A program made the position numbers and the translations under genes. A stretch of 63,989 bases of DNA, counting the filler, from Phoronis australis (lineage: Eukaryota > Animalia > Phoronida): NCBI GenBank assembly GCA_002633005.1. It is 10 parts of 10 records of this genome, joined end to end, with 100 filler letters (N's around TTAATTAATTAA, not from the genome) between each part and the next. Parts side by side here need not be neighbours in the genome. Positions count along the whole stretch, not along the records: positions 35,098 to 45,454 come from NMRA01000635.1; 9 more parts are not named here. One strand, given 5' to 3'. The notes beneath the pieces are model-generated. The model had not been told where the DNA came from. It was given only the letters and a program-made list of their open reading frames with translations, and made no database searches. Below are positions 1,008 to 55,149 of this stretch, one piece after another; the stretch's first letter is position 1, and the number at the start of each line of letters is the position of its first letter.

Positions 1008-3506
1008 CCCATTTATGCCCAACTACGCGTTTTCAGTGGATATTCAGATAGTATGTGCCATTAGACATACAATGAACATAATGAATAAGGAAAAATGGAA
1101 AGAAGTTTTTATTTTACGTTTTTTGACGTTTTCATCTTCGTCCCACAAAAGGGACGCTGGGCACATATGGGGTTCTATAAACCACCAACAGAAATACCTA
1201 CTAAAACCAGTAAAAATGAAAGATGTGGTATGATATTGATTGTTTTTGGATGCTAATATATTGCAGAAAGTAAAACAAAAGACAAAAATTGATGAGAATG
1301 TTGTATCAAGTATCTTTATTTTGGCACATGAAATGCCATAAAGCATTTGTCGTAAAGACTAACATCGCATTTCACACAAAAACGCTTTGTCTTCATTTTA
1401 CAAACTGCATATCGCCTCTGGGTGTCTTTTGTGTTTATGAAGTGGTCCAATCTGTCAAATCCGACATCAGGCAATACTTTCTTTGAGCAAGGCACGGATT
1501 TAGGAACATACTGAGTTACTCGTTTCCCCTTCATGAGCAATACATTAGCCGAACCTCCAGGAGATCTTTGTGCTGCTCCATTCCACTTTCGGTTGCTCTG
1601 TAGAGGTGTCATGCTTGCTGTACACAAAGATCTAGACAATAGGCGAAAATCGGCCACCACCATTTTTTGATCGTATCGAGACCCTGTATTTATCTATGTT
1701 TTGATCCATTCTGTCGACGCCACCCATGGTTTGATTGTAGTGACTTATCACAAAGGGTTGGTAAATCCGTATGCGCTGGCTCTCTGCGCGAGACCATCTC
1801 TTTGCTCTTTGTAAGGGGGCAACTCCGTGAAGATTGGACACTATATTGACAATGCTGTTGTCATTCCACCTAACAACACATAGATTGTTCGCGGCATCGC
1901 ATGAGTAGTCATATGTACCACGAGGTGTCTTCTGGAACTCTTTCACTGCTCTCAGGGGACAGTCTCCGAGACAATTTGCACGGATTTTGCCAGTGCATAC
2001 AATGCCTTGTCTCGAGAGCTCGTCAACCATGTCCAGTGAGGTGAACAAGTTGTCAAAGGTCAGGTGGTATGGTCTGTCCTTTGGTAGCTCAGCCAACGGA
2101 TCAAGCACGACTCTACCCCCATACCAAACCCCGCAGTGTCACCCGTCTGCTGACCTCGTTTTCCCTGATATGGTTCAAACTGAACCACGTATTCTAAAGC
2201 AGTTATCAACGCCCAGATTTTGAATCCGAATCTGATGGGTTTGCTGCGAATAAACTGTTTGGCCCCGCGTCCCCGGTAGTAGGGGATCATCGACTCGTCA
2301 ATTGACAGGTTTTGCTCTCGGCTGAAATAGACGAGACATTTCTCATTGATAGCCGACATCAGAGGTCTCACCATTCCCATTTTGTCGGAGCCATCCAGGC
2401 GATTGTTGTCTACTAAATGCATATAACGCATTATTGTCTCGACCCTGTTGCGAGACAAAGTGTTGGCTACTGCTGTGTTGTGCAAATCATCGTCAAGAGA
2501 CCAATACATTTTTCGCCTAGGTGTCGATGAGTATCCGGATACCAGGAGTATGCCAATGAACGATTTCATCTCATCTTGGGTAACAGTGAATTCATGAGCA
2601 CCTTTTGTTCCAGCACAGCGCACCGTCTTTGACACAATCATATCAATTACATCATCAGAAAAAAACAACTCGAACAATCCTGTTGGAGTCTGCGGCAAGT
2701 TGTCAAAGTTTGCTGTTGGTTGTTGACGCCACAGAAATTTGTCATGGGCTGTGATGTCCTGTTTGACCCAGGTTCTTGCAGCCTTTTGCTTTTTTGCCTT
2801 TTTGGTATTACTGTTTCTTCGTTGTTGTTTGGGTGGAGGTGGTTCATCATCAGAGCTGTCTTCCATTCGTTGACGTGTGCTGTTGATAACGGTTACAGAC
2901 GCTGCAGCAGTAAGGAGACGACCAGGAAGATTATCTATATTTCCAACGCTGTCTTCATCTCCACTGTCCTCATCTGTTATACCACCATCTGAAGGTGGGT
3001 TCATAAAAATGTCAGCCCGTTGAAATGCTCCATCATCTTCCAGCATTGCAACAGCATCATTTACAGTAAGATTCCTGCCAAATAAAATGAGAATAATGAT
3101 ATTACCAGGAGCAACCATTTTAGCCCAGCGTCCCTCTTGTGGGACGTTTTCAAAGGCATATATTGTTTACAAAATTTGTGAAAACAAATAATCAAAGCTT
3201 TCTATGGACTCTAGACACATTATTTTACTAAGTGAATTGCAATAAACTAAAAATTTCATGATTTGAATAAAATTTTTGCTTACCTTCTTTGAGACATGTG
3301 AAAACCTCTAAACCATGCAGGCGTGGCGTCACAATAGCACAATTACGTAAGTAAAAGTGGAGATAATTCCAATTGTTGCAAGTGACCCTCTGCGTACATT
3401 CCCAAGCAAACACTATACCAGAGTAAATTCAGATAGAATTGAATTTTTGTTATTTAGGACAGCATTTTTGTAGTGTCCCACCAATGGGACGCTGGGCATC
3501 AATGGG
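1008..3506 (-). mobile_element. piggyBac DNA transposon, full length, inactive
   Basis: 14-bp TIRs CCCATTTATGCCCA (1008-1021) and TGGGCATCAATGGG (3493-3506), 1 mismatch. TTAA at 1004-1007; the right flank reads TATA. Palindromic subterminal motif GTCCC-N5/7-GGGACG at ~1140, ~3125 and ~3475. Encloses transposase ORFs. Confidence 0.93.
1316..3297 (-). pseudogene. piggyBac (PGBD3-like) transposase, two frameshifts
   Basis: Three overlapping ORFs (2060-3118, 1632-2108, 1316-1663) carry SIDESM, KPIRFGFKIW, TFDNLFTS and GGVDRMDQ (DDD triad) and a degenerate C-terminal Cys-rich domain. Predicted 14-nt exon 1 at 3297-3284 and intron 3283-3075. Confidence 0.92.
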
Positions 3507-12406: not shown

Positions 12407-12561
12407 TGTGATAACTTTGGGAATAACAATGATGTTAGTCGATAACTGAGTACTATATTAATTATCCTAAACTACAGTAAGCAGCCATAACGGAAGAAGA
12501 GCATCAGGGGTAAAAAACGTGTTAACAGTAACGCCATCTGGCGACTAAACAAGCTATAACA
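12407..12561 (-). repeat. 3' LTR of Mag-like element
   Basis: Direct repeat of 16607-16761; adjoins the PPT. Confidence 0.95.
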
Positions 12562-12675
12562 CTTCCCCCCTTAAGTCCAGTCCATATGTAGCAAACAAGG
12601 GTAAATACTTTAGCAACCACAAGTGTCAACTTAATTAAAAGTCACTCCCACAAATGCATTTTGCAACGTTCCATC

Positions 12676-15600
12676 TTAATTACACTTAAACCACAAGTCC
12701 AGTCGAACCGGTGGTTTTACAACCCTCAACGAGCGTCTGGGTGCAGGCACCGGTTTATCTGAAAAAGCTGGCTCGGTTACAGTCTCTGGAGATGTAACAA
12801 GTTCATTGTTGACTTGACCAGTTGGAGTTTCCACAGTTTTTGCGAATGTTTTTGGTACAATCACACCATCAGATATCACCGCAGGTTCCACCACGGCAGC
12901 CTTCGGAATCACGGCTTCACGCACGTCAGTCTCCAACAACTGTAATATATGGTCAATGTGTCGTCGCATAACACAACCATCCAACAATTCGACCTGATAC
13001 GACACCGGCCCAGAAGGCGCAATAACAGTGGCTTTAAGCCATTTTTCACCAACAGTACCGAAATTTTTCACAAGTACTTTATCGCCTGGATTGAACACGC
13101 GGTCGCCACAAGATCCTGGTAGTCCTTCTGCAACCAATGTCTCTCGGACGTTTGCGCGGGTCGCATGTTGTCAAGACGAGACCGCAATCTCCTACGTTAC
13201 AACATGTTACAAGGTGGTTCACCAGCTGTGCTATGTGGGGTTAAGCGGTACCATATAAGCAGCTTGTTCAATCTTGTAGATAGTGTCCCACCTTTGATCT
13301 TTCGAAGTCCGTCCTTGACCACCTGTACGGCCCTTTCGGCCAGTCCGTTTGACGCGGGGTGGTAGGGAGACACAAGTATTTGTTTCACCAAATTGCTGTT
13401 CAAGAAGTCACGAAACTCTTCACTTGTGAAACATGATGCATTGTCACTAACAACCGAACGTGGCACACCATGATCTGTGAACAATTTTCGCTTGCTTTCT
13501 ATAGTCGCAGCGGATGACGAAGAACTGTTCACGTGTACATAAATTCACTTTGATTTTGCATCGATTATTACTAACAACATCTTTCCCTCGAAAGGACCTG
13601 ATTAATCAAGATGCAGACGTTCCCACGGTTCTCCTGGTTCCACCCACGGGAGCTTCTGCAGGCATTTTCCTGCCCTGCTGACAGTTCGAAAAATTTTTAA
13701 CTATCATTTCTATCTCGCTGTCCATTTTTGGCCACCAAATGTAACCTCTCGCTAGGATCTTCGCTCTCGAAATTCCCAGATGAGCTTCGTGTAGCTCACG
13801 CAGTACATGAGAACGGAGTGACTGGGGTACTATAAGACGACAACCCCATAAGACACAGCCATTGTCTACACTAAGTTCATCGCGACGAACATAATACGGT
13901 TGGTAACGTTCATCAGTCACCTCAGATGGCCAACCGAATCTCACAAAATGCAGTACTGTAGACAATACACTGTCTCTGGCTGTCAATCGTTTCACATTAC
14001 GCATGTTCGCAGAGGTGGTTGACAGAGTCTCCTTCACCCAGTTCACTTGGCATGGCATCTCCACTCGAGCCGGAGATTCGCGAACAGGCAACCTGCTAAG
14101 TCCATCAGCATTAGCCAGCTTCGCACCCGGTTTGCACCGAATCGCGTAATTGTATCCGGACAGAATGAGCGACCATCGCTTCAAACGGTCCGAGGCCATC
14201 TGCGGGATAGCCTTGTCGATTCCGAAAATTCCCATCAGTGGCTTATGGTCCGACTCAATAACAAATGTACGTCCGTACAAATATTGATCAAATCTACTTA
14301 GTCCGAAAATGATTGCGGCACCTTCCTAGTCCAGTTGACTATTGTTCTTTTCTGCAGTGTTTAAGGTGCGAGATGCGTAAGCAATAGGGTGCTCTGAACC
14401 ATCACTGTCTATGTGAGGGATAACTGCACCGAGACCATAGGGAGACGCGTCGCAAGCAAGCACAATCGACTTAGTCGGGTCATAATGTGTCAGTACCGTG
14501 TCCAAAGACAACAGATCTTTCGACAGCTCGAAAGCCGTGTTCTCCTTGCCTGTCCATGACCAACGAACACCTTTCTGTAGCAGTCTGTAGAGCGGTGGTA
14601 AGTGCGTAGGTGCATCTCGAATATATTAACAATAATAGTCCACCATTCCAAGAGAAGCACGTAATTCTGAGACATTTTTCGGACCCGGTGCATCGCGAAT
14701 AGCTGCAACTTTATCATCAGTAGAGTGAAGCCTCTCTTTGTCAATACGATGTCCAAGATAGACGATCTCGTCCTGTAAGAAGCTACACTTTTCACGATTT
14801 AGTCTCGAACCGGCATCTGAAAGTTTGAGTAACACTGCCTTTAAGTTCGCCAAATGTTCTTCCCGACATTTGCCAGTCACAACTATGTCCTCAAGATAGA
14901 CGACTACTCCCGGCAACCCTTGCAAAAGGTTGTCAATGGGTGTTGCCAAATACCTGGGGCGGAGTGGACCCCAAATGGTAACCGTGTATATTTGTATAAC
15001 CCACGGTGGGTATTAATTACCAAATACTTCTGCGAAGTTTCATCGACTGGCATCTGTAAATAAGCATTACTCATATCGAGCTTACTACACTGGACACCCT
15101 GTGCCACCTTGGCCTGTATTTCGTCAACTTTCGGAATGGGATGCTTGTCAAGCAGTGCTTCCTTATTGACAGTGACACGAAAATCTCCGCAAATGCGTTT
15201 CTTACTGTTAGACTTCACAACCGGTACTATGGGTGCGGCCCATTCAGAAAATTGTACCTTCTTGATGACACCGGACTGTTCCAGACGATCTAGCTCATCG
15301 TCCACTCGTGGCTGTAAGGCATAGGGTACGGGTCGGGCTTTGAAAAACTGAGGACGCGCATCAGCGGGCATGTGGATTTTAGCCACCTCACCTGTCAAGT
15401 TACCAAGTTTGTCCGCAAACAAATTCGTAAACCTGGTCAACAGATCATCCAGATCACTTGTGAACACTTTGTTCACTGATTCCCAGTCATTCATGGCTTA
15501 ATTTTTCCAGTTACGCCCTAGAAACATATGTAACCAATCACGCCCCAACAAGCTTGGAACGCTGTCCCAAACAACTAGTAATGGTAAGTCATACCGTTTA

Positions 15601-16582
15601 CCATTTACACTGACATGTACTGTAGCTTTGCCACTAAGTTTAATTGGTGACTTTGTATATGAATACAAACTGTCACTGGCATGAATCAATTTTACACCAT
15701 CAAAATGATTGTCAAAAGTTTTCCTGGCTAATCAATGTCTTGGGAGAGCCAGTGTCTACCTCAAACTGGAGAGGTTTACCATGGATAATAAGAGTCGTGA
15801 CGATCGGAGACTCTCCACCTTCTTGCCCATGGACTTTGTTTAGCAGGTCCTGAGACTCGGACACATGGTACGTGCTCTTACCTTTTGGCTTTGTGGTTTT
15901 GGGTGCTGAAAAACATTTCTTTCGTAGGTGACCCTTCTTACCGCACCTATGGCACTCCGCCTCCTTAAACCTACATGCCTCTGGTTCGTGCTTTCCACCA
16001 CAGCGAAAACACACTTTTGTCTGACTTTGCTGTTTCGTCTGACTCTGCATCTCCTTCTCCTTCCGCTTTTGACCCTGAACATAGTGTGTGCTACCACCAA
16101 CTGTCCCACCTATTAGTCCCACATTGCAGACAGCCGTTTCCAGTGCCGTGCACGTTTTTAGTGCCTTAGAAAATGTCAAGTCTTTTGTGGCTAACAAACG
16201 TTTTTGCATGTCTCACCAAATTCACACTTTCCTGCTAGTTGATACAAACGTGCCATGTACTGAGCAATCGATTCGTCCTTGGAGCGTTGGGCTGAGTGAA
16301 ATCTGTACCTGCAAACAATGGTATTTTCCTTGGGAGCATAGTGTTCTGTTAACACATCGATGAGTTCTGTGAATGTCTTATCTCCGGGCTTTGCTGGTTG
16401 TATCAGATTCCGTATGGTTTGATAAGTGGCTGGGCCACACGTACAGTACTCAGAAAAATCGCCCTCCTTTTCTCATCTGATTCCACGTCGTTTGCAACGA
16501 AATAAAAGTTCAGCCTCTCCACATAGTTATTCCAGTTTTCAGTGTCCACGTTATATTCCTTACACTGTCCGTGCATTGCCAT
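12676..16582 (-). pseudogene. gag-pol of Mag-like element, fragmented
   Basis: Two CCHC knuckles (CFRCGGKHEPEAC, CHRCGKKGHLRKKC), protease VDTGS, RT (WAAPIVPV, RICGDF, RLPFGV, YLEDI), RNase H (LACDASPYGLGAV, DHKPL, NADGLSRLP), integrase (LHEAHLG, VSDN, YHPASNGLAERAV, GPVSY). Multiple stops and frameshifts. Confidence 0.93.
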
Positions 16583-16606
16583 TGCTTTGTTTTTCTCGTC
16601 GCCAAC

Positions 16607-16761
16607 TGTGATAACTTTGGGAATAACAATGATGTTAATCGATAGCTGAGTACTATATTAATCATCCCAAACTACAGTAAGCAGCCATAACGGAAGAAGA
16701 GCATCAAGGGTAAAAAACGTGTTAACAGTAACGCCATCTGGCGACTAAACAAGCTATAACA
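16607..16761 (-). repeat. 5' LTR of Mag-like element
   Basis: Direct repeat of 12407-12561; adjoins the PBS. Confidence 0.95.
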
Positions 16762-31989: not shown

Positions 31990-32708
31990 ACTTATTTAAC
32001 GAAGCTCAGGCTGGTTTTAGAAAGGGGTATAGTACAATAGACCAAATTTTTACCTTACAAGGAATTGTTCATAAGTACTTGAGTAAGCGCAGGGGCAGAT
32101 TTTATGCTATATACGTGGATTTTTTCTCGGGCCTTTGACAGCATTTCACATAAATTTTTGTGGAATAGGCTTCAAAAAATAGGAATACATGGTAGTGTTT
32201 TAAAATTGATGAAAAGTATGTATTCAAAGCTAAGAGCGTGTGTAAGAACTGAGCGTGGGTTAACTGACTTTTTCAGTGGTACTCGCCAAGGGTGTATGCT
32301 TAGTCCTTTTTTATTTAGTATGTATTTGAACGAGTTTGTTGATTACTTAAGAGAATCTTTAATTAGCGGAATTTACGTAAATGAGAATGTGCCTCAAATT
32401 TGTATGTTGCTATACGCTGATGATATGGTTGGTTGTGCAGAGACAGCATTTAAACTACAGCAACAAATTAACGCTCTGCATGAATACTGTCAGGATTGGG
32501 GTATGAAAGTCAACCTTACAAAAACAAAAATAATGGTATTTAGAAAGGGCGGACCATTGAGAAAATACGAAAAATGGCATTTTGGAAATGACAAAATTGA
32601 TGTCGTCTCATCATATAAGTACCTGGGTATTTGCCTTACACCTAAGTTAGTCTGGACGCAAGCTACGGAAACTTTGTCTCACCAGGCACAGAAAGCAATT
32701 TTTTCAAT
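31990..32708 (+). mobile_element. Non-LTR retrotransposon RT fragment (RTE-X/CR1-group like), frameshifted and cut by a gap
   Basis: QAGFRKGYSTIDQIF, YVDF/SRAFDSISH, GTRQGCMLSPFLF, LLYADD and YKYLG motifs. Confidence 0.9.
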
Positions 32709-35097: not shown

Positions 35098-35262
35098 ATG
35101 GGCAACTGGTAAATATCTGAATGGTAATAGCCCTCACTCACTCATGGGCAACTGGTAAATATCTGAATGGTAATAGCCCTCACTCACTCATGGGCAACTT
35201 GTAACTATCTGAATGGTTAGCCTGCACTCACTAACAGGCAACTGCTAAGTAGTTGAATGGTT
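35098..35262. repeat. 46-bp minisatellite derived from the tRNA-like LTR segment
   Basis: Unit ATGGGCAACTGGTAAATATCTGAATGGTAATAGCCCTCACTCACTC, which grades into the LTR sequence GAATGGTTAGCACAC. Confidence 0.8.
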
Positions 35263-35700
35263 AGCACACTTGCTGGTTTAACGGAGTCGCTAGTTCCATT
35301 CCTGTGTTGGGAAATCTCCAATCTACAATTGGTGTAGTCGGCAAACGGATGGTATACCAAAGAAAAACTGCCAACTATAGCACTGCAGTGAACCTCCCCG
35401 AGCTGGCCTTATGGGTAACGAGTACTTACAACACAGGTCAAATACTTGTCAGTCCCAGTGTTCAAGACAGTACTCAGACCTCAGACAGCAGGCATGGCCA
35501 TGGGTATGGGGACGATAAAAGTTCCAGAGTTGAGGACCTGTATGATAAGACACCTTGTGTTCACCTGTATTGTGGTGCCAAAGTTGACGACCTGTGGGCT
35601 AGACAATCTGGTATTCACTGTTCTGTTAGCGCACCTGTTCTATAGGAAAGGAGGGAATTTTGTAGATACGCTTTCGGTGAATCATATGAGCCTCTGACAG
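35240..35700 (+). mobile_element. TRIM-like non-autonomous LTR element with tRNA-like LTR, decayed copy
   Basis: LTR end ...CTACA (35327), PBS TGGTGTAGTCGGC (35330), ~330-bp internal region similar to 39567-39760, PPT AGGAAAGGAGGGAA (35644-35657), then a partial LTR TGTAGAT.... Confidence 0.7.
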
Positions 35701-36323
35701 CATTAGACATTGAATGAATTATTGCAAAATGGAAACTGATGTCATTTATTTCTCAGATAAGATTATATAAAAATGTCAGATATTTAGGTACGTCCGATAT
35801 TTAGTCTGCAAATGACCTAACTCTTGATTTTGCAAAAAATGGGCTTGCTCAGTATGTATTAATTAACCCTTTATGCAACTTCTATAGTAATAGGCTAGAT
35901 TACCTGTCCTTGGAATAGAACCAACAATTTACCCCAATAGAACTGAACTGGCAGTGGCAAGTTTGCTAATCAAATTTGAAGCTAATAGATAATTGCCCTG
36001 GTTTCAATACATGCTGTTTGGTAAAGCTTGGTTTTAACTGGTCATAACAGTTCATCATACCACTAGTACCTCCGGCAAGCGACGTTGCACACTACAATTA
36101 GCCCAAATAGTAGTATACAATTTCCAACCGTCCTCAGCCTCTCACTCTCAGGCAGAGTCGGTCAGAAACCCTCCTGCAACGCCGAGCATGTCGCGGGACG
36201 AAAAGCGTATCAAGCTCTTTCAAATGAAAATGTTTTAGTGAAAAACGCAAAGCAAAACAACGTATTATTACATTGCCATGTACTTTGAAAACAAATTCTC
36301 GTCTTTTTTTGTCAAAAGGATAC

Positions 36324-36452: not shown

Positions 36453-36555
36453 ATGGCCGCGTCCAGGGTGAAAAATGCGAAATGTGTTTATGTCGGCGAC
36501 GATGAAGTTTTCCAGCACATTGTCAACCTCGAAGGCTTAACACTAGACGACGCAA
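36453..36555 (+). CDS. ORC2: Origin recognition complex subunit 2, first coding exon
   Basis: Encodes MAASRVKNAKCVYVGDDEVFQHIVNLEG..., resembling the ORC2 N-terminus (VHFVGDDDVLNHILDREG); donor A|GTGAGT. Confidence 0.72.
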
Positions 36556-36791
36556 GTGAGTTAGATAGAGGTTAGATAGAGACAAGATTTAGAAAATACC
36601 TGTTGTAGTAATAGCCGAGCGTACCCGACACGGGAATCGAACCACTGCAACCCTGCGTGCTAACCATTCAGCTAATACGCAAGGCCCTTAGCGAGTAGCT
36701 AACAGAGGCTGATATGATTCATCGGAAGCACATCTATAACATTCTGTTAGCTACTCGCTAACGTGCAATTGTCTATCAGCTGAATGGTTAT

Positions 36792-37167
36792 TAGACAATA
36801 ACCCTTGGGTTTTTCTAACGATGCTTTATTAAGCAAGACGAATGTCCGTCTGAAACATACAAAATGAATATACAAATACTGTGAATTGAACTCTATATAA
36901 ACAACGAATGATAACTAATAATAACGGCTAATACACGTATGCGCCAGAAAATAAACAAAAGAACTCACCAGCACTTATCTGGTTTTGTGTAGAAATGTAC
37001 TGCGCAAACGTGAGGATGCTTTAATAGCTGGCGTGACACGAGAGCGCAATCGCGTGTCACGTAAACTATTCTCTACCTCCCCCCTAAGTTCCTTNGCAAA
37101 CGTGAGGACGCTTTAATAGCTGGCGTGACACGAGAGCGCAATCGCGTGTCACGTAAACTATTCTCTA
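36792..37167 (-). mobile_element. LTR-type insertion with TA...TA termini (collapsed at N 37095)
   Basis: Inverted termini TAGACAATA/TATTCTCTA and 5-bp TSD GTTAT. The LTR end is duplicated on both sides of the N, with a PPT-like CCTCCCCCC after the first copy. Confidence 0.6.
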
Positions 37168-37171
37168 GTTA

Positions 37172-37474
37172 TGTAGTAAATGTCGACATTAGTCTCAGCT
37201 GTGGCGTCTCTATGTGTGATGTCCTTTTCATGACAAAGTTGATTTTGGCCTGGTGCGATACCTGATGCCAGAAGTGCCCAGCAGAGGTCACACTGTCATC
37301 ATGTGACCAGTCACCTTTCAAGACCACGTGACAAGATCGTCTGGGCCTTCTGGAGTTTGCGGCCGTCCTGTGCGGACGTGCACGCCAGTACACTGTAGAC
37401 TTTACTCTTTCACCGTGTTCAATAGGCCGAACCTGCTTGACTGTGGCAGTAGCTGCAGCCATAATAATACAACA
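37172..37474. mobile_element. Solo LTR
   Basis: TGTAGTA...TACAACA termini and 4-bp TSD GTTA (37168-37171, 37475-37478). Removing it restores GAATGGTTAGCACG of the host LTR. Confidence 0.7.
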
Positions 37475-37956
37475 GTTAGCACGCTTGCCGGTTTTATGGG
37501 GGTCGCTGGTTCGATTCCCGGGTCGGGTTATATCGGCTATTACTACAGGTGCTCCTAAGTCTATATGATTCTGTTAGGTTCAGTCGGTACGTCCAAAAGA
37601 ATCATACCGCTCCAGTCCTCGTGCCAGCCTTTGTTTCGGCCGCAGGAATCCTGAATATTCATGTAGCGACCTCATTGGGCAGCACCGGCATAAGGGCCGG
37701 GACAGCCAACGTCGGCAATCACCAAGACACGCAACAGTCGTCTTCTGATGCTAACAGAGGGCGCGCGGTTAAAGGCCAGCGCAGCAGTGAGACACGTCAA
37801 ATAACGTCTCACTACAGAGCTGTAATGGTTAGCACGCTCGCCGGTTTTATGGGGGGTCGCTGGTTCAATTCCCAGACCTGGGTCGGGTAGTCTCGGCTAT
37901 TACTACAAATGGCGTAGTCGGCGAACGGATGATCTATTGATGAAAATCTAGTACCC

Positions 37957-39561
37957 CAGGGATATACCCAGGTTTCAAAACCCCGCTTACCAGCTGGGCG
38001 AGTGAGCCAAAAAATCTACTCGCCCAGCCCGAAGTTCAGTCGCCCAGCCGTTTGCGTCTGTCACCACGAACTTGCTGTCAGTGTAAATAAAAATCAACGT
38101 TTCGTGCGTTGATGTCACCATCTATTAGGGCTACCGTATTCTCCCTAATAAGAAAAAATCGTTTCGGAAGGGGAGGCGCTGTTTATATAGTCTCCGAAAG
38201 AGGTGAAATCGGAAGCTAGGATTTATCAAATTTACGCGCTGTGACGTAAGTGCATTGCTATCAAACTTTGTTGTTAAATTACGATCTTTTTTAAAAAATG
38301 TGCTGAAATCCCAGGGCGAAAACTTGCCAACTGATGCATCGCTTCTAGGGTAAAAACGCAGTTAAATTCAACAAACTATCTTAAATCCTCCTTAAGTTTT
38401 CCAAATAGCGTCCCTAAGATTTTTAAATTACTGTGGAGTCGGGATTAACCGCAGATTAAATCCAAATCGCACCCTGCAACACGAGAAAAATCTGGACGAA
38501 CACACATGTTGTTGTCACGTGATGTTTGTTTTGAAGTTAGTCTGCACGTGTGACCCGAGGGAGCGAGCGCGTGCGTGTCATCAGATTTCATTTGCCAGAG
38601 TATCAGGCCTCAACGCACGCTTCTTGGACATGTGCTCATTAACGCAGGTCAAGTTTTGATTCGCGGTTTTTACACACGTACAAAGTAATCTGGATTCCTG
38701 TTGACGGAGATCTGTATGGGAAAGGTACAATACAATCCGGTTCACCAGTACGCTGTGCCTGTTCTGAAAGACCTGACCATAGTGAGTGATTGCAAGATCA
38801 GCAAAACTTTTGCGTTCGTTTTGAAGCACTTTTAGCCACGGCTAAATACCGTCATAGCGGCGAGGCTCGTGTCATGGTCTCGAAATTCTGAGCATTATGA
38901 TTTTTCAGGACTGTCGGATATTATCATTGATAAATTGAAGATTTTTGTACTGTAGAATTTTATAACTGTAGGTAAGACATTTTTCAAATATGTACATTTT
39001 CATGAATTGGCGCTTACTTTAGCGAAATCTGAAAATGAGTGGGGGGCGCTTATAGGGGCATGGGTGCTTATTAGGACGATTGTTATTATTTGAAAATGTT
39101 ATTATTTATAAACTAATTTTGGCTAAAATGACATTGTATATTACAATAAGAAATCAGTCCTAAGATATATGGTTTTTCACTTAATTGCTTTGAGCACATG
39201 GATCGGTCTTCTGTCTTTCCCCCTTTTCTTCGATTCGGACTACTCCACAAATTCCTTTGTGCACGACCACACACTGTAATCTTTTGTCTAGACGAATGGT
39301 GTAACGGGTGACATCTACTGAATCGGTAGGATCGCACTGCGCCGATGTTTTTTACTGCCGGAGCATCGACACGCTGACCAAACTGAAGCTTAAATTGATG
39401 ATAAAAACAGCACAAGGAGGAGAAAATTTATTCAAACGATATAGTGCTTTTGTGCTCTGAAAATTCGCTCGCCACCTGGGCGACTGGCAAGTCAACTTCT
39501 ACTCGCCCAACACCATTTTTACTCGCATTGGCGACTGGGCGAGTGACTAAGTATATCCCTG
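37957..39561. mobile_element. Non-autonomous hAT5-like DNA transposon
   Basis: TIR CAGGGATATAC/GTATATCCCTG, 5-bp TSD TACCC and subterminal CTCGCCCA repeats. Confidence 0.85.
38134..39083. mobile_element. Tc1/mariner-type MITE nested in the hAT5-like element
   Basis: TA|CCGTATT start; homologous along its length to 41584-42999. Confidence 0.7.
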
Positions 39562-41036
39562 TACCCGCGTACCTCGGATGGCGCACATAGATGGTGATGG
39601 TAAATGTTCCAGGACAGGAGTCTAGGACCTGCATGAGAGACAACCTTGTGTTCACCTATGTTGTGGTGGTAAAGGTACCAAAGGGAGTTGATGACCTGTA
39701 TGTGAAACAACCTGGTGTTCACTTTCCTGGTGACGTCCCTGTTCTGTAGGAAGAGGGGAATGTCGTAGATGTGCATCCGGTGAATCATACGAGCCTGACT
39801 GTTAGCTAAATCGTTAACGACTAACGCGCAATTGCCTATTAGCTGAATGGTTAGCACACTCGCTGGTTTTATGTGGTTCGCTGGTTTGATTTCCATGTTG
39901 GGTAATCTCGGCTATTACTACATACCAATATTAAATGACCACAGTTTTGTTAACAATCACATTTTGAAAGTTAATTTTCCACAATGCATTGACAAGTTGA
40001 TCTTAGTTCGGCACTAGTCAGATGTAACGGCCCCTCTTTAAACCACCAGAACTTCCTCAATTTTTGAGCTAGAATCATGATTTCAGATAGTGTCACTTTT
40101 GCGTATGTTTCATTTTTAAATCTCACAGACTTTTAAATAAAGATTATTAAGTACTACTTCTACTATTGCATCCAAGCATTCAAAAGGCGTGTAGCAATTG
40201 TTCTGTGAATTGCCAACTTTATCCACAGTCAGTAACCCGTTCAATGACGTCATTAAGATGCTTGACACCTAACAGTGATTGCGTGTGTCAATTTATAGGG
40301 TCAGGAAATGGCCATTTGCAGTTTTAGCATTTAATTTTCCCAGAGGCAAGTAAAGCTGTCTCGTTTTTCACTTTAGATATTTATTTCTTTAAGAATGAGT
40401 CTGCATTCACCATTCCATTTTTGAAGCAGAGAAATTTAATGTTAATTTTTTTCAAAAATTTGAATTCTCTGCGTAAGTCTTTCACACCCCTTTCAAGTCG
40501 ATTTTTTCAGTCAGATAAGAAGATAGGAGAAGGTGATTTGAAAGCTATAAATGAGACCTAACGATTGATGTACTACGTATTGTCCTTGGAGCAAATTTTT
40601 TTCACAATTGATTGAAACGTTCTCTGATGTATGTCACAAATGGAATTGCCAATATATTTAATTTACATGTTCATAAGTTTCAAGATGAAGTGACCTGAAG
40701 AAGTTTCTGGATGGTGTAAGTTAACACGAGGACTATTGACCTGGACCCCAATTTTCTGGTTCCGGCACAAATTTGTCAAAAAAAATTGACGTTTGGAAGT
40801 GCCTTAGTGTAAGACTGAGTATTATACTGTATTCATAGCTGATTATGAAAGAAACCAACTCAACCCACCCCACCAAAGTAATGAATTGTTGACAAAATTA
40901 TTCAGGAAAAGTGTTTTTGTGCTGAAAGTGCATGTCTTTAACTGCTACATTTATATTGTGGTTTCTATGGTTACTGTGGTTTCTATGGTTACCATGGTTG
41001 CTATGGTTTCTATGCAAAGAATTTGATATCTTTCAG

Positions 41037-41162
41037 AGCCTCAAGTTGCTGGATTAACTCTTAAACTATTCAAGAATGTAAGAAAGAAGAAAAGTGTTGG
41101 TTATGCACAGTCCGGCTCTGAAGAGGATGACTCAGGAACAGAATGTTACAAACCATCGCAAG
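41037..41162 (+). CDS. ORC2: Probable ORC2 exon 2
   Basis: TTTCAG acceptor and AG|GTAATG donor, phase 1/1. Open frame KPQVAGLTLKLFKNVRKKKSVGYAQSGSEEDDSGTECYKPSQ is compatible with exon 1. Confidence 0.6.
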
Positions 41163-41583
41163 GTAATGATGATCGTCAATAGAGCAAATGGGCCGCTTGT
41201 TATTCTTGTATGTCATTTTGACTTGATTGTCTGTACTTACGTGTGAGTGTTAATCTCTAACATATTTAATGTTACTACATAATGCATGTCAAGGTCAAGT
41301 TCAAGGTCTACATTCTGTAGCTAGTTACAATAATCTCAGAGGTACTGATGGTGCAGTCTTGACTTGTCTGATAAAATCCAAAGGTTGACACCAGCTCTAC
41401 AATAACATGTGCGCTCAGTGAGATGAAAGACTAATTTTTTTTCTAATCTGAACTTTGATGTGATTGAACCAGAGTTTACAACTGAGAGTGGGATTTGTTG
41501 AAGACCATGGGAAGAATGGGTGCTGTCTGGGAAAAGAAAAAATATCTGTTCTCTGAGACTGAAAAAAAAAACATTGTGAATTA

Positions 41584-42999
41584 CCGTGTTCGCCGTAATA
41601 AGCGCCTAGGGCGCTTAGAAAATTCCGGTTCAGAGGGGGCGCTTATTATAACCCAAGGCGGTTGAAACCTGGTCTCTGAAACGGGTGAAATCGGAAGCTA
41701 AGATTCATTAAATTTATGCTCTATGACGTATATGTAATCTATGAAAGACTTTCAACAAAACTGTGGTGCATTGCTATCAACCTTTGCTGCTAAATTACGA
41801 TCATGTTACAGAAAATTGTGCTGAAATCCCAGGGCGAAAACTCGCCGACTTACTGCCTCGAAATCGCCGTCTTCGATATGGCGACTTCAATGCTTGAATA
41901 AAAATTTTTTCGACTCAAGCAAATTACCTGAAATCCTCATTAAGTTTTCTAAGTAGCGTCCCTAAGATTTTTTTTTTAGGTTCCCGTGGAGTCTGGATTA
42001 ACGGCAGGTTTAAGTACAAATCTGTGCAACATCGTGTCATCTACATGTATGATCGGCAACATGGCGAGAAAAATATCTGGACGAACACACATGTTGTCAC
42101 GTGACGTTTGTTTTGAAGTTTGTCTGCGAGTAAGCGAGTGCGTGCGTGTCACTAGAGTTCATTTGCCAAAGCAGAGACCGTCTTTTTGCCAGAGCCACGC
42201 AGTCTAACTAGCCAGATGTGTCTAAAGAAATTTGCACAAGCAGTAGGCTTAAACAAGAGCGTCTTTCATTCAGCACTTGCCGGTCTCGTGCTAAAAACTT
42301 TCGACATTTGTCTCGGTAAGGCCCATATTAGTCGCCGTGTAGCTGGATGCGTACATAACTATCTGACAGTTATTTTTCGGTGTAAGGGTGTGTAAGCATT
42401 CACTGTCAGTTGTCATTTTATCGGATATTCGGCATAAAAACACCAATTATGGTTAATCCAACAATCCATCTCAAAAATAACGCAAACATGTTTTATAGTA
42501 TTAGAAATTGTCGGAAATTAGTGCCAATATTCATTTCTTATCGATGCTATGCTACCCGTTTCATGAATGGATAGTTCCTGACTAATGTCTTTGATGACAG
42601 GTTCATGGATGTAGCGCGCGCATCCTGGCCACGTGCGTTTAACACAGAGTTATTTTTATTCATGAGACAGTCGATGTGTCTACTGAAAGGTCAGACCATA
42701 GTGGGACGCGGTCATCGCGATAGCGTAGCAATGCTGTTGCGTTCTTTTTGAAGCGCTGCGTTACTTTGAAGTTTAAAGTCACAGCTAAATACAAACGTAG
42801 CAGTGCCACTGGTGGTCTAGAAGACTCGTGCAAACATTTTTTGATAAATTGAAGACGTTACTGTAGCCGAGTTTTAGGACTGTAGGTTCGTCATTGTTCA
42901 CATGTACACGTTCATGGACTGGGCGCTTATTTCAGCAAAGTCTGAAAACGTGTGGGGGGGACGCTTATAGGGCATGGGCGGTTATTACGGCTAATATGG
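41584..42999. mobile_element. Tc1/mariner (pogo/Tc2-like) non-autonomous element
   Basis: TA TSD on both sides; imperfect TIR CCGTGTTCGCCGTAATAAGCGCC / GGCGGTTATTACGGCTAATATGG. Confidence 0.8.
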
Positions 43000-43135
43000 T
43001 AAGCAATTAATAAATAAATGTACCTGGCAGTGCGTGAACCGTGATGTGACTTTATTTGATACCGGTCTTAAAAAAGCTGAGTGAAAAGCTAATCACGAAT
43101 AAAAGCCAGTATCTGATGATTGTAGTACCTCCACA

Positions 43136-45454: not shown

Positions 45455-45617
45455 NNNNNNNNNNNNNNNNNNNNNNNNNNNNNNNNNNNNNNNNNNNNTT
45501 AATTAATTAANNNNNNNNNNNNNNNNNNNNNNNNNNNNNNNNNNNNNNNNNNNNACTCCACATTATGAATGGGCAAGTTCTGAATCATTACAATGATACA
45601 CTGCGTGATTTTTACAG

Positions 45618-46091
45618 GTTGAGAAAACATGCCTGCCGATGGAACTGCGATTCAAAATTCTCCGAATTCTGAATGAACCCCAACAAAGAAAGGCATTTGA
45701 AAAATTGCTGAAGAAGGAACTGAAAGTTGCACAAGAAGTGATTGATGAGTTTGAAAAACTTCATCAATATCAAGAGGCTGAACGTATATATGGCAATGGA
45801 TACCTGGTGGATATCTTTGAAATGACTCTGAAGAGACTGGACAAATCACCCGCCGTAGATGGCCCGAAGATACTGATGGCACATTTTCAATCCAATCCAG
45901 ACTCCATTCTTCTAGATATTGAAAAATATTGTTATCCGGAGACGAACCCTTTTATTCGGCAGCCTGAGGGTGATTGTGACGGTGTGGCAGGAAGTGAGGT
46001 GCAGATGAGGACCTTTAAGAAGCGGCAGGGTAATCAACGGGTTGGAAAAGACAGTGGTTACACATCTTACCCATCAGGGCTGTTCCAGTAA
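45618..46091 (+). CDS. Terminal exon of unidentified gene (helical, possibly death-fold-like), C-terminus altered by a MITE
   Basis: TTTTACAG acceptor in frame with the 150-aa ORF. Removing the MITE extends the frame to TAA at 46688. Confidence 0.6.
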   Translation, partial: VEKTCLPMELRFKILRILNEPQQRKAFEKLLKKELKVAQEVIDEFEKLHQYQEAERIYGNGYLVDIFEMTLKRLDKSPAVDGPKILMAHFQSNPDSILLDIEKYCYPETNPFIRQPEGDCDGVAGSEVQMRTFKKRQGNQRVGKDSGYTSYPSGLFQ

Positions 46092-49201: not shown

Positions 49202-49421
49202 CTGAAATCAAACGCAAAGAAAACTCTGTGACTCACTTCCCTTGACCATAGACTACGAAATAAGTGTGTGAATTTTCGTGACAGTCAATCCCTGCACTCA
49301 ACAAAAATTGATGTTCGAAATTGCCCAAACTCAAAAACCAAAAGGTCAGCAAATAACTAACAAAAAATTCTTTAGATATAGTAAATATATAGACGCTGAG
49401 GTTGGCCAGTAGTGAAATATA

Positions 49422-49807
49422 TCAAATAAACACAGAAATATCAGGAACCCCAACTGGAAATCAAACCACAGGTCTCTAGATTGCCAGTCTAGCGCTCTTA
49501 CCAATGAGCTACTGAGGACCCAATATCTGTGCAATTACTGTTTACAGCCAACTGTTAAGTCATACATCCCATGAGCGGCGTTTCACCTTTTTCACACGGG
49601 ATTTAGACAATTATATATATAATCCCGTGTGAAAAAGGCGAAACGNAACGCCGCTCATGGGATGTATGACTTAACAGTTGGCTGTAAACAGTAATTGCAC
49701 AGATATCGGGTCCTCAGTAGCTCCATGGTGAGACCACTAGACTGGCAATCTAGAGACCTGAGGTTCGATTCCCAGTTGGGTTTCCTGATTTTTCTGTGTT
49801 TATTTGA
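49422..49807. mobile_element. Palindromic element made of two outward-facing tRNA-like units
   Basis: ~180-bp inverted arms around a TATATA-rich spacer. Each arm has an A box, a CTAGA-CTGGCAA-TCTAG stem-loop, a B box (GGTTCGATTCC) and a T-run. Confidence 0.7.
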
Positions 49808-50860
49808 AAAAATTCTTTGTGGTACTAGTCAGTAGAAGACGTGGCAAACAACATGGGGCATTTGATAAAACATACTAATGTAATTAAACAATTTCCATGG
49901 GTAGCAATAAAACGAGATGTTATTTATACTACACGTGAATAAATCTGGAAAAAATCAACAAAAGTATCAACAGTTACCTAACTCCGATAAACGAATTGTT
50001 TTCTTGCCACAATTATAGCATTTACCAAAGCAAATTGAGAGATACCCTGGCATGGATATAAGTGGACAAACACCGCAACGGTTCGTCAATACCGTAAAGA
50101 CTGACGGCTCTTTGAAAATATTTAAATGCTACCAGTGCCTTGAACGATTTGTTTGGGGATGGAAATCGTTTCAACTAAGGCTTCTAGAAACATGTTCAGA
50201 TCCAGTTGGAACGGGTGAGTTACATAGTTTATAACTTGCTTTCCATATAGTGTAAGACGTAACAATTCAAAATTTGAAAAACATGGTGGTGCAAACATGA
50301 AAAATGCACAAAAAAACAAATAGACAATCTAAACAATACTATAACAAAATCACTGACAGAGACCCAGAACTAGTTGAGTGAAGTTTTTAAGTAAAACCAA
50401 GGCCACCATATCCAAACTTTGTTTGAAAATAAATCAACTGGAAAAGGTTGACAGTGGATTTTGAGAACCAGGCAATAACTGAATTTACATTCATTCAATT
50501 ATTCAACGCAGGAAACTGCTTCTCTAAGTTTCAGATTATTCTATTCTGCTAGTACCAAATAGCTTACCTTCTTTTTCTAAGATGACGATGTTGTCCGGTT
50601 CATACGCACTAAAACAAAAACATCATTTTCATTATAACTGCGAAAACAATTACTTGCATACACATGTCAGGAATCGTTTTTGCCATTTTTACGCTGCTCG
50701 TGGCAGGGAGCATGACATCATGTCCCCTAAAGTGAGCAGCGTAAAAATGGCCAGTTGCTGNNNNNNNNNNNNNNNNNNNNNNNNNNNNNNNNNNNNNNNN
50801 NNNNTTAATTAATTAANNNNNNNNNNNNNNNNNNNNNNNNNNNNNNNNNNNNNNNNNNNN

Positions 50861-53666: not shown

Positions 53667-54317
53667 CTATAGCTTCTGTATGTGGTACATCATTCCAGGT
53701 TCTCCGTACAAATATCGCTCTACCTGTGTACTCTCAATCAACTTCATCTTTTCGTCATTTTCAAGTTTCTGATACAGATTCATGCATGCTGTGGGAGAGT
53801 GGGATCCTTCATTTATTTTCATCACAATGACAATATCGCCACCTTTCTTAACGACTCTCAAAAACTCCAAGATAGAGTCAATAGGCATGGCACATGGACC
53901 AATGGCACCAGAGATCACTGCTGCATCATATGATGCACTGTCGATCTCCGGAGTAGGTGCAGACGAAACGGGATAACAATAAATGTTTTTGTAGAGACCC
54001 TTCGGTCTAGCTTTATCCAACATCTCTTTACACGGGTCGACAGCATCCATATTGTTAAATCCAGACTTACGAAGTCCTTCCGCCACCCTGCCCGTTCCAG
54101 CACCAAAGTCTATAATACGAGCAGTTTTATTCTCCCCGAGCACTTCTGCCAGTTTTTTCGCGGCGAAGATTGGCGATTGAAATTCTGCATCGACTGTATC
54201 TTCATCATATGTGTTAGACCAGGCGGCATACGTAGTCGTACCGTCTTTATAAGCTTCTTCTACAATATGTCTAACATGAGCGAATCGCTCTTCTCTCGTC
54301 CGGCTAACTTTGTCCAT
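53667..54317 (-). CDS. Class I SAM-dependent methyltransferase, METTL27/WBSCR27-like, intronless
   Basis: Intact 216-aa ORF from ATG 54317, with YAAWSNTYDED, motif I IIDFGAGTG, DAVDPCKEML and LRVVKKGG. TATA-like TATAATA ~45 bp upstream. Confidence 0.88.
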   Translation of the reverse strand: MDKVSRTREERFAHVRHIVEEAYKDGTTTYAAWSNTYDEDTVDAEFQSPIFAAKKLAEVLGENKTARIIDFGAGTGRVAEGLRKSGFNNMDAVDPCKEMLDKARPKGLYKNIYCYPVSSAPTPEIDSASYDAAVISGAIGPCAMPIDSILEFLRVVKKGGDIVIVMKINEGSHSPTACMNLYQKLENDEKMKLIESTQVERYLYGEPGMMYHIQKL

Positions 54318-55149
54318 GACACACCTCACAGCCCTGTATCTGCTGGGGACAAGTTGCTATTATAGTCGGCTCGTACCTACACTTGAAGTTACGTCACCGT
54401 GGGGTTAGTCTAGGATAAGGTGAACGTTTACCTGGGAGTAGGTCATTATAGTACTTGTTTACAAAGACTCCCTTTGTATCGGTCGGAATATGGTTCAGAG
54501 CAGTGGTCAGTAGAGATGATTTCAAAACATCATGCGTGAGTCACGCACGGTCTGCCATCGAAGCCACTCTGTCTAATCCCTACAGAGAGAACTCACTCTT
54601 CAACACTAGGCTCTGTGGAATCGGAAAAGCGGAGTTCTCTGTTTGCAAAGTATGTTGAAAAATAAAACAGAGTTTTATTTCCTTTCAAAGTATCCCAGAT
54701 ATTCCATAAAACTGGAAAAGTTCAAAGCGAAGGGACCATTTTAGCAACATGGGATGTTGTTTTTTTATTTTTGATCGAATAGCCTATGTGGTGATGTTGA
54801 TAGTTTAGTCCTCAGGCCCGTAGGCCAGCATCAATGCGCGGGCGATGGTCCGAATTTCTAAAACGGCAGCCCTTTGATATTTTACAAACGCCTAGATATA
54901 GAGTTTTCGGTAAGGCCCTTGACGCAGCTTTATTAGAGGGATGGCCGGGAAATCTGCTCAGTGTTCCCGAGATGAGACGGAATTCGTAATACCATAAATG
55001 AGGATGCCTTATCGGTTGCTCGCGTTACCCCCTGCCAAACTTTCACAACCAGACGTGCTCAAATGAGCGATTGCATCTTGACATACTCGGACGGAAATAT
55101 TTGATCGGAGAATGACTTGCAAATTTTTATGAGGTTGTATTTCGCATGT

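What the first reader, a model, noticed from the sequence alone, without database searches (positions are those of the whole stretch)
36601..39922. Miniature LTR retroelement whose LTR is a tRNA-like Pol III promoter (Helenus-like TRIM) in ORC2 intron 1
Seen: a ~160-bp LTR (TG...TACTACA) contains an A box TAGCTGAATGG and a B box GGTTCGATTCC. It is followed by a PBS TGGCGTAGTCGGC, a non-coding internal region of ~250-330 bp and a PPT. A 4-bp TSD TACC flanks the whole cluster, and a second copy lies at 35240-35700. Established: this PBS matches the 3' end of tRNA-Ser, and TRIMs carrying Pol III-derived sequence are known (Cassandra with 5S; Helenus with tRNA-like LTRs). Inference: this is a SINE/LTR hybrid transcribed by Pol III and mobilised by a Gypsy partner, possibly a new family in this lineage.
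Basis: partly seen in the sequence, partly recalled or inferred. Interest (0 to 1): 0.8.

Follow-up and report, generated by a model that had tools for sequence, protein, structure and literature searches.

The report
Decayed Helenus-type mini LTR retrotransposon
This is an old, repeatedly interrupted copy of a very abundant, gene-less jumping element whose end repeats carry worn tRNA-like promoter motifs; it is likely a new family of the Helenus type described in 2024, so it is a new example and not a new kind of element.

Summary
The motifs are real, but 36601-39922 is a 3.3-kb nest, not one mini element. A non-coding LTR-PBS-internal-PPT-LTR unit of about 0.57 kb (162+243+162) has been split by a 1,605-bp TIR element with a 5-bp duplication, a 684-bp insert, a reversed solo LTR and a further repeat. 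The PBS matches the 3' end of tRNA-Ser. In reads and contigs the LTR ends sharply, is contiguous without the 684-bp insert and leads into a PBS; depth suggests about 1,400 LTRs and about 100 internal parts (rough). tRNA likeness is modest: both quoted boxes are exact together only in the reversed LTR; tRNA models give E 0.003-8. The 4-bp TSD rests on one rearranged locus. The host intron is spliced in RNA and exon 1 resembles ORC2 (E 0.038). Layout fits Helenus (Kojima 2024); no family-specific word or PBS matched its published set. Pol III transcription and a Gypsy helper are inferred, not shown; the host lineage could not be placed. The scan has noted Helenus-like elements in at least 17 other genomes.

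The parts
36453..36555 (+). Exon 1 of the host gene, ORC2-like N-terminus
   Evidence: PDB best hit ORC2, E 0.038; GT donor at 36556; RNA joint 36555->41039 in 6 reads of X6; phase checked
36597..36600 (+). TACC, candidate left target-site duplication, followed by TGT (probable start of LTR-A)
   Evidence: chance of TACC within 5 offsets 0.016, chosen after the fact
36604..36741 (-). Complete 138-bp solo LTR of the family in reverse orientation; exact A box (36674-36664) and B box (36643-36633), 20-nt spacing; flanked by CTGT on the left and TT+CTGT on the right
   Evidence: sharp end at 36741 in 16 contigs, agreement of flanks 0.40
36744..36790 (+). LTR-A, middle part with A box (36777-36787); its first ~36 bp are missing
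   Evidence: joined to 37475 in reads of 3 of 3 RNA runs and contigs of 2 of 2 DNA runs
36791..37474 (.). 684-bp insert with 4-bp duplication GTTA, made of other repeats; type not resolved
37475..37547 (+). LTR-A, 3' part with exact B box (37508-37518), ends TACTACA
   Evidence: E 0.0059; sharp end in 44 and 45 contigs with unlike flanks
37548..37816 (.). Unrelated segment; 37652-37816 is a separate TG...CA repeat of about 40-fold depth
   Evidence: table 8
37817..37907 (+). LTR-B, 3' half only (damaged A box, B box 37862-37872), 93% like LTR-A's 3' part
   Evidence: E 0.0026
37910..37922 (+). Primer-binding site complementary to the 3' end of tRNA-Ser (AGA/CGA/TGA type)
   Evidence: 13 of 13 letters match the human tRNA-Ser(UGA) template in PMC3299991; 25 of 28 loci with the complement are tRNA-Ser
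37908..37956 (+). Internal region, 5' piece
   Evidence: 77% like copy 2 over 40 bp
37957..39561 (.). 1,605-bp non-coding TIR element (11-bp TIR, 5-bp duplication TACCC; hAT5-like by TSD length), itself holding a nested MITE-like repeat at about 38133-39075
   Evidence: sharp ends at 37957 and 39561 in reads and contigs; hAT5 definition in PMC12730594
39567..39760 (+). Internal region, 3' piece, with two ~65-bp tandem units and PPT (39748-39760)
39761..39922 (+). 3' LTR (LTR-C), 162 bp; A box 39840-39850, B box 39883-39893 with two mismatches; tRNA-like stretch 39833-39907
   Evidence: 11.7 bits, E 0.45
39923..39926 (+). TACC, candidate right target-site duplication
35098..35702 (+). Copy 2: 5' LTR with a 46-bp A-box unit repeated 3.6 times, PBS at 35330, 330-bp internal part, PPT 35644-35657, cut 3' LTR
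41037..41162 (+). Exon 2 of the host gene
   Evidence: AG acceptor, open in frame with exon 1; RNA joint

Best explanation
The stretch is an old, multiply interrupted insertion of a non-coding miniature LTR retrotransposon with tRNA-like A and B boxes in its LTRs, a tRNA-Ser primer site and a polypurine tract, which was likely transcribed by RNA polymerase III from its LTR and likely copied and integrated by the enzymes of an unidentified Gypsy element. Shown: the layout, the PBS match, sharp LTR ends, high copy number, the later insertions. Inferred from Helenus and general LTR biology: Pol III starts just upstream of the A box in the 5' LTR and runs to the 3' LTR; host tRNA-Ser primes minus-strand synthesis, the PPT primes the plus strand, a borrowed integrase makes a 4-bp duplication; LTR-LTR recombination leaves mostly solo LTRs. 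This copy is probably dead: LTRs 84-88% alike, damaged boxes, four or more later insertions.
For: Two copies in the window with the same order LTR end, 2 nt, PBS, internal part, PPT, LTR start. PBS 13 of 13 to tRNA-Ser; reads from other copies extend the match to 14 (57 reads at 37923 in 3 of 3 RNA runs). LTR end joined to a PBS in 14 reads of X7 (joint 37515->35330). LTR halves joined without the 684-bp insert in 40, 32 and 115 reads and in 2 and 3 contigs. Flanks behind 37547 and 36741 are unlike each other (agreement 0.39-0.40). Depth about 1,100-1,600 times that of single-locus contigs on the LTR, about 70-110 times on the internal start. Boxes fit the Helenus motifs TRGCY, YGG, GGTTC; 4 of 5 box-bearing LTR pieces are among 16 hits of a tRNA model, all in the right orientation; T-arm hits E 0.0026 and 0.0059. 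No Pfam match in 7 of 7 stop-free frames tested. No run of 4 T in either internal part, as read-through by Pol III would need (weak).
Against: tRNA likeness is weak per copy: no Rfam or default ARAGORN hit, structured-model E 0.45-8.3, no better than some chance hits, and no cloverleaf fold (z 0.67, -0.08). The model was trained on phage tRNAs picked with a D-loop/T-loop pattern. No strand bias or start site at the tRNA-like head in RNA. Only one candidate TSD for the whole unit and its left end is rearranged; the reversed solo LTR has CTGT on both sides only with 2 extra letters. LTR-A, -B and -C carry TTTT between the boxes, which could stop Pol III early (absent from the reversed LTR and copy 2). 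No intact full-length copy was seen, and summed contig depth is, by the tool's own note, not a copy number.
Confidence: 0.8

Rival explanations
1. An ordinary Pol II-driven TRIM (or the solo LTRs and deleted forms of a full Gypsy element) whose LTR holds a dead tRNA/SINE remnant or a chance likeness that plays no part in transcription.
For: Weak model scores and no cloverleaf; the reversed LTR has lost 12 nt between the boxes; no Pol III start seen; LTRs outnumber the internal part about ten to one, so some may belong to a longer element.
Against: A and B boxes at tRNA spacing (32 nt) and a 6-of-7-pair acceptor-like stem in LTR-C; a one-mismatch box pair arises 0.15 times per simulated window against 2 seen, one in this LTR; two copies with short non-coding internal parts sharing both ends.
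Confidence: 0.14
2. A tRNA-derived SINE, with the PBS and PPT as coincidences or neighbours.
For: tRNA-like boxes; very many short dispersed copies.
Against: About 60-70 bp of conserved sequence upstream of the tRNA-like head, fixed TG...CA ends, no A-rich or repeat tail, PBS and PPT at LTR-typical positions in two copies and in reads.
Confidence: 0.03
3. A retrozyme-like element in which a self-cleaving ribozyme, not a terminator, trims the Pol III transcript (a lead from two earlier scan notes on other genomes).
For: No T-run follows the B box here, unlike many Helenus LTRs seen in the supplement.
Against: No ribozyme family at E up to 10 in the LTRs or internal parts; only about 30 nt lie between B box and LTR end; no unusual folding.
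Confidence: 0.03

Closest known systems
Helenus TRIMs (TRIMp3), Kojima 2024, PMC10886601; animal families of bivalves, Lingula, nemerteans, fishes, wasps, a ctenophore
   Same: Short non-coding LTR-PBS-internal-PPT-LTR unit within the 311-1263 bp range; LTR length like bivalve/nemertean families (104-193 bp); TRGCY/YGG and GGTTC motifs; 3'-end tRNA primer; many solo LTRs; probable 4-bp TSD.
   Different: PBS TGGCGTAGTCGG not found in the supplement (the listed Ser sites begin TGGCGCTGC and TGGCGACGAG); 10 of 12 words from this element absent, the two found being a generic T-arm word and an unrelated fungal hit; tRNA-like part more decayed; no T-run after the B box.
Cassandra and Ajax (5S rRNA-bearing TRIMs; as described in PMC10886601)
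   Same: Pol III-type promoter inside the LTR of a TRIM.
   Different: They carry 5S rRNA boxes and (Ajax) make 5-bp TSDs; no 5S match here.
tRNA-derived SINE2
   Same: A/B-box head.
   Different: Here the head lies inside a TG...CA repeat with PBS and PPT; no LINE-like or A-rich tail.
hAT5 DNA transposons (5-bp TSD; passage in PMC12730594)
   Same: The 1,605-bp insert has short TIRs and a 5-bp duplication.
   Different: Non-coding, so membership could not be tested by a transposase; other 5-bp-TSD superfamilies are not excluded.

Membership tests
Helenus (TRIMp3) | Two LTRs flanking a short internal part | tested here: met
   Two degraded copies in the window; LTR-PBS link also in reads. No intact copy seen.
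Helenus (TRIMp3) | PBS just behind the 5' LTR, complementary to a tRNA 3' end | tested here: met
   13 of 13 to tRNA-Ser, 2 nt behind the LTR end
Helenus (TRIMp3) | PPT just before the 3' LTR | tested here: met
   13 and 14 purines abutting the LTR start in 2 of 2 copies
Helenus (TRIMp3) | Short (about 0.3-1.3 kb) and non-coding | tested here: met
   About 570 and 650 bp by arithmetic without the inserts; no Pfam match in 7 of 7 frames
Helenus (TRIMp3) | tRNA-like sequence in the LTR with TRGCY/YGG (box A) and GGTTC (box B) | tested here: met
   Motifs present; T-arm E 0.0026 and 0.0059; whole-tRNA model weak, E 0.45-8.3; Rfam and ARAGORN blank
Helenus (TRIMp3) | 4-bp TSD (animal families) | tested here: inconclusive
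   TACC pair at one locus with a rearranged left end; CTGT pair with 2 extra letters at the solo LTR; both flanks of other copies were not obtainable (no genome held)
Helenus (TRIMp3) | Transcription by RNA polymerase III (predicted, not shown, for Helenus itself) | not testable with these tools
   Standard RNA-seq reads are mostly 90-95% alike (other loci), on both strands, with no start at the head
Helenus (TRIMp3) | Autonomous Gypsy partner sharing PBS and TSD length | tested here: inconclusive
   Only the window could be searched; its Gypsy-type element has a 5-bp TSD and another tRNA-Ser PBS
A published Helenus family | Shared LTR or PBS sequence with a consensus in Data S1 | tested here: not met
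   Word searches only; line breaks in the file can hide a word; no alignment was run
SINE2 | tRNA head at the 5' end, variable tail | tested here: not met
   Head is internal; fixed TG...CA ends
Retrozyme | Self-cleaving ribozyme in the LTR | tested here: not met
   No Rfam ribozyme at E up to 10; single decayed copies only

The most novel reading that the evidence does not exclude
An independently born Pol III-driven TRIM lineage with about 1,400 LTRs in an animal group where none is reported, using a tRNA-Ser primer new for Helenus, whose own A box attracts further integrations (3 of 3 junctions that interrupt its LTRs here lie within about 35 nt of an A box), as if a helper integrase were drawn to Pol III complexes in the way recalled for yeast Ty3.
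Probability: 0.1. Interest if true: 0.65.

Novelty: new member of a known kind. Interest (0 to 1): 0.3.

Why it matters
It adds a high-copy family and a new primer type to a class known from one bioinformatic paper, whose Pol III transcription and helpers are still untested. About a thousand dispersed A/B-box units could mislead tRNA and SINE annotation and, next to promoters such as this ORC2-like gene's, might affect chromatin. This particular copy is too decayed to be the test case; younger copies in the same genome would be.

Tried and rejected
No whole genome is held, so consensus, pairing and TSD statistics across copies could not be had. ARAGORN default: 0 genes in the window; at lowered thresholds no clean LTR hit. 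Rfam: no tRNA, 5S or ribozyme match in 6 searches; the mir-1781 hit is the hairpin made by two head-to-head LTR pieces. LTR-end+PBS pattern: 0 in metagenome contigs. tRNA-Ser pattern: 0 in viral contigs. Host lineage: protein searches gave nothing or at most 47% identity with mixed taxa (the atlas gave no answer), so it stays 'an animal'. No RNA holder of the stretch was listed. 37589-37637 had no contig cover, which proves nothing. The joint across the 1,605-bp insert (empty site) was not among the joints shown (44 joints not shown). The Gypsy-type element at 12407-16761 was rejected as helper. The tRNA-like pair at 49.4-49.8 kb shares only 69% over 64 bp with the LTR, not enough to call it the donor. 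Earlier scan notes: no look-alike sequence. Literature: searches found no further description of such families beyond Kojima 2024 and citing papers; Repbase and Dfam were not available.
Full report
What the sequence shows. The window is animal DNA of 40% GC with assembly gaps; no whole genome is held. Self-comparison finds seven pieces of one short repeat between 35098 and 39922: a complete 162-bp copy (LTR-C, 39761-39922), a complete 138-bp copy on the minus strand (36604-36741), a copy split in two (LTR-A, 36744-36790 and 37475-37547), a 3' half (LTR-B, 37817-37907), and two pieces in copy 2. They are 73-93% alike over aligned letters; LTR-B and LTR-C, which flank the internal part, 88%, LTR-A's 3' part and LTR-C 84%. 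Complete copies begin TG and end TACTACA.

The element proper. Two nucleotides behind LTR-B stands TGGCGTAGTCGGC. It is identical to the first 13 letters of a template for the 3' end of human tRNA-Ser(UGA) printed in PMC3299991 (passages read), and 25 of 28 tested loci that hold its complement behind a T-loop are tRNA-Ser genes with AGA, CGA or TGA anticodons (28 of 113 loci given). The pattern occurs twice in the window at up to two mismatches, each time right behind an LTR end. Both copies have a purine tract abutting the 3' LTR and share the start (77% over 40 bp) and the last 170 bp (71%) of the internal part. Without later inserts the internal part is 243 bp in copy 1 and 330 bp in copy 2. 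Seven stop-free frames over the region have no Pfam match.

The 3.3 kb is a nest. A 1,605-bp element with 11-bp TIRs and a 5-bp duplication splits the internal part (37957-39561); its ends are sharp in reads and contigs, a 5-bp TSD defines hAT5 (passage in PMC12730594), and it holds a further MITE-like repeat related to 41582-43001. A 684-bp insert with the duplication GTTA splits LTR-A; reads of all three RNA runs (40, 32, 115) and contigs of both DNA runs (2, 3) join the halves without it. 37652-37816 is a separate TG...CA repeat. The reversed LTR sits between CTGT and TT+CTGT, and the first 36 bp of LTR-A are missing, so the left end is rearranged. TACC on both sides of the cluster, followed on the left by TGT, suggests that the cluster began as one insertion (chance 0.016 for TACC within five offsets, picked after the fact). 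One account, inferred: the 5' LTR's 3' half was duplicated (LTR-A 3' part and LTR-B are the closest pair, 93%) and was then hit by several insertions.

The family elsewhere. DNA contigs (2 of 4 DNA runs laid, one sample, possibly the assembly's own) give 1,092 and 859 pieces on 36560-38000. Flanks behind 37547 (44 and 45 contigs) and 36741 (16) are unlike each other (agreement 0.39-0.40), so both LTR ends are true termini. Summed depth on the LTR is about 1,100-1,600 times that of single-locus contigs in both runs and about 70-110 times at the start of the internal part; the tool warns that this is not a copy number, so I take it as orders of magnitude: about a thousand LTRs, mostly solo or with diverged internal parts. 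In RNA (3 of 3 raw-read runs, one study, about a fifth of each read) 14 reads join an LTR end to a PBS, and all 57 reads at 37923 carry the letter that lengthens the tRNA-Ser match to 14. No intact full-length copy and no pair of flanks from another locus could be read.

How tRNA-like is the LTR? Kojima's motifs TRGCY, YGG and GGTTC are present, with 32 nt between the boxes in LTR-C and 20 in the reversed LTR. A one-mismatch box-pair scan finds only the reversed LTR and an unrelated site at 49718 (0.15 expected, 20 simulations). Rfam and default ARAGORN are blank. A covariance model from 70 of 113 distinct phage tRNA loci lists four LTR pieces among 16 hits, all in the right orientation but at E 0.45-8.3, level with chance hits; the sequence-only model finds the T-arm of LTR-B and LTR-A at E 0.0026 and 0.0059. 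No cloverleaf is predicted. So the LTR holds a decayed tRNA-type promoter module, not a tRNA gene. RNA reads are mostly 90-95% alike, lie on both strands and show no start at the head: Pol III transcription is neither shown nor excluded. Neither internal part has a run of four T; LTR-A, -B and -C have one between the boxes, the reversed LTR and copy 2 none.

Host gene. Exon 1 (36453-36555) has ORC2 as best PDB match (E 0.038), the intron 36556-41036 is GT-AG and in frame and is joined in 6 reads of one run. No later ORC2 exon was recognised by eye in the plus-strand frames, so the name is probable, not proven. Copy 2 lies upstream of the ATG.

Mechanism. Likely Pol III transcription from the 5' LTR, tRNA-Ser priming, PPT priming and integration by a Gypsy helper, as Kojima infers for animal Helenus (main text parts 1-4 of 6 read; supplement parts 1, 9, 10, 11 of 11 and three searches). 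The helper is unknown: the Gypsy-type element at 12407-16761 has a 5-bp TSD and the other tRNA-Ser site.

Novelty. The layout is that of Helenus. No family-specific word and not this PBS were found in the published set (word search only, supplement parts 2-8 seen only in excerpts), so it is probably an undescribed family. Whether the host group is new is open, since the lineage could not be placed. Searches found no further primary description; PMC12859917 (passages) only cites it. Earlier notes of this scan report Helenus-like elements 81 times in at least 17 genomes (unchecked notes), none with this sequence. The ribozyme variant raised by two of those notes was tested by Rfam and not found. 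The clustering of three junctions near A boxes is a post hoc observation on a 150-bp target; Ty3's targeting of Pol III genes is recalled, not read here. Verdict: new member of a known kind, decayed copy, interest 0.3.

Noticed in passing
window 49414-49815: A ~400-bp foldback (arms 88% alike) with two outward-facing tRNA-like heads (49444-49518 minus, 49711-49785 plus; model E 3e-10 and 9e-8), each with over 100 bp of shared upstream sequence; a SINE, another tRNA-bearing LTR or an inverted duplication.
   Followed up: partly
window 12407-16761 (minus): Gypsy-type LTR retrotransposon with ~155-bp LTRs 93% alike, 5-bp TSD GGTAG, tRNA-Ser-GCT-type PBS and a pol broken over several frames.
   Followed up: partly
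window 37957-39561 and 41582-43001: hAT5-like TIR element (about 200-fold depth) with a nested MITE related to a second MITE in the next intron; both draw many RNA reads from other loci.
   Followed up: partly
window 37652-37816: Separate TG...CA repeat of about 40-fold depth with a terminal hairpin; may be the LTR of another family.
   Followed up: partly
window 35098-35261: The A-box region of copy 2's 5' LTR is tandemly repeated (46-bp unit, 3.6 copies), a minisatellite born from a Pol III-type box.
   Followed up: no
window 36560-38000, joints 36744/37545 and 36744/37547: Two single-locus contigs join an LTR end to an LTR start, hinting at tandem LTRs elsewhere in the genome.
   Followed up: no
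window 1316-3166 (minus), 32083-32706, 53667-54356 (minus), 45609-46091: piggyBac-like transposase (DDE_Tnp_1_7), a LINE reverse transcriptase piece, a single-exon SAM methyltransferase with at most 47% identity to any library protein, and a 160-codon frame without Pfam or homologue.
   Followed up: partly
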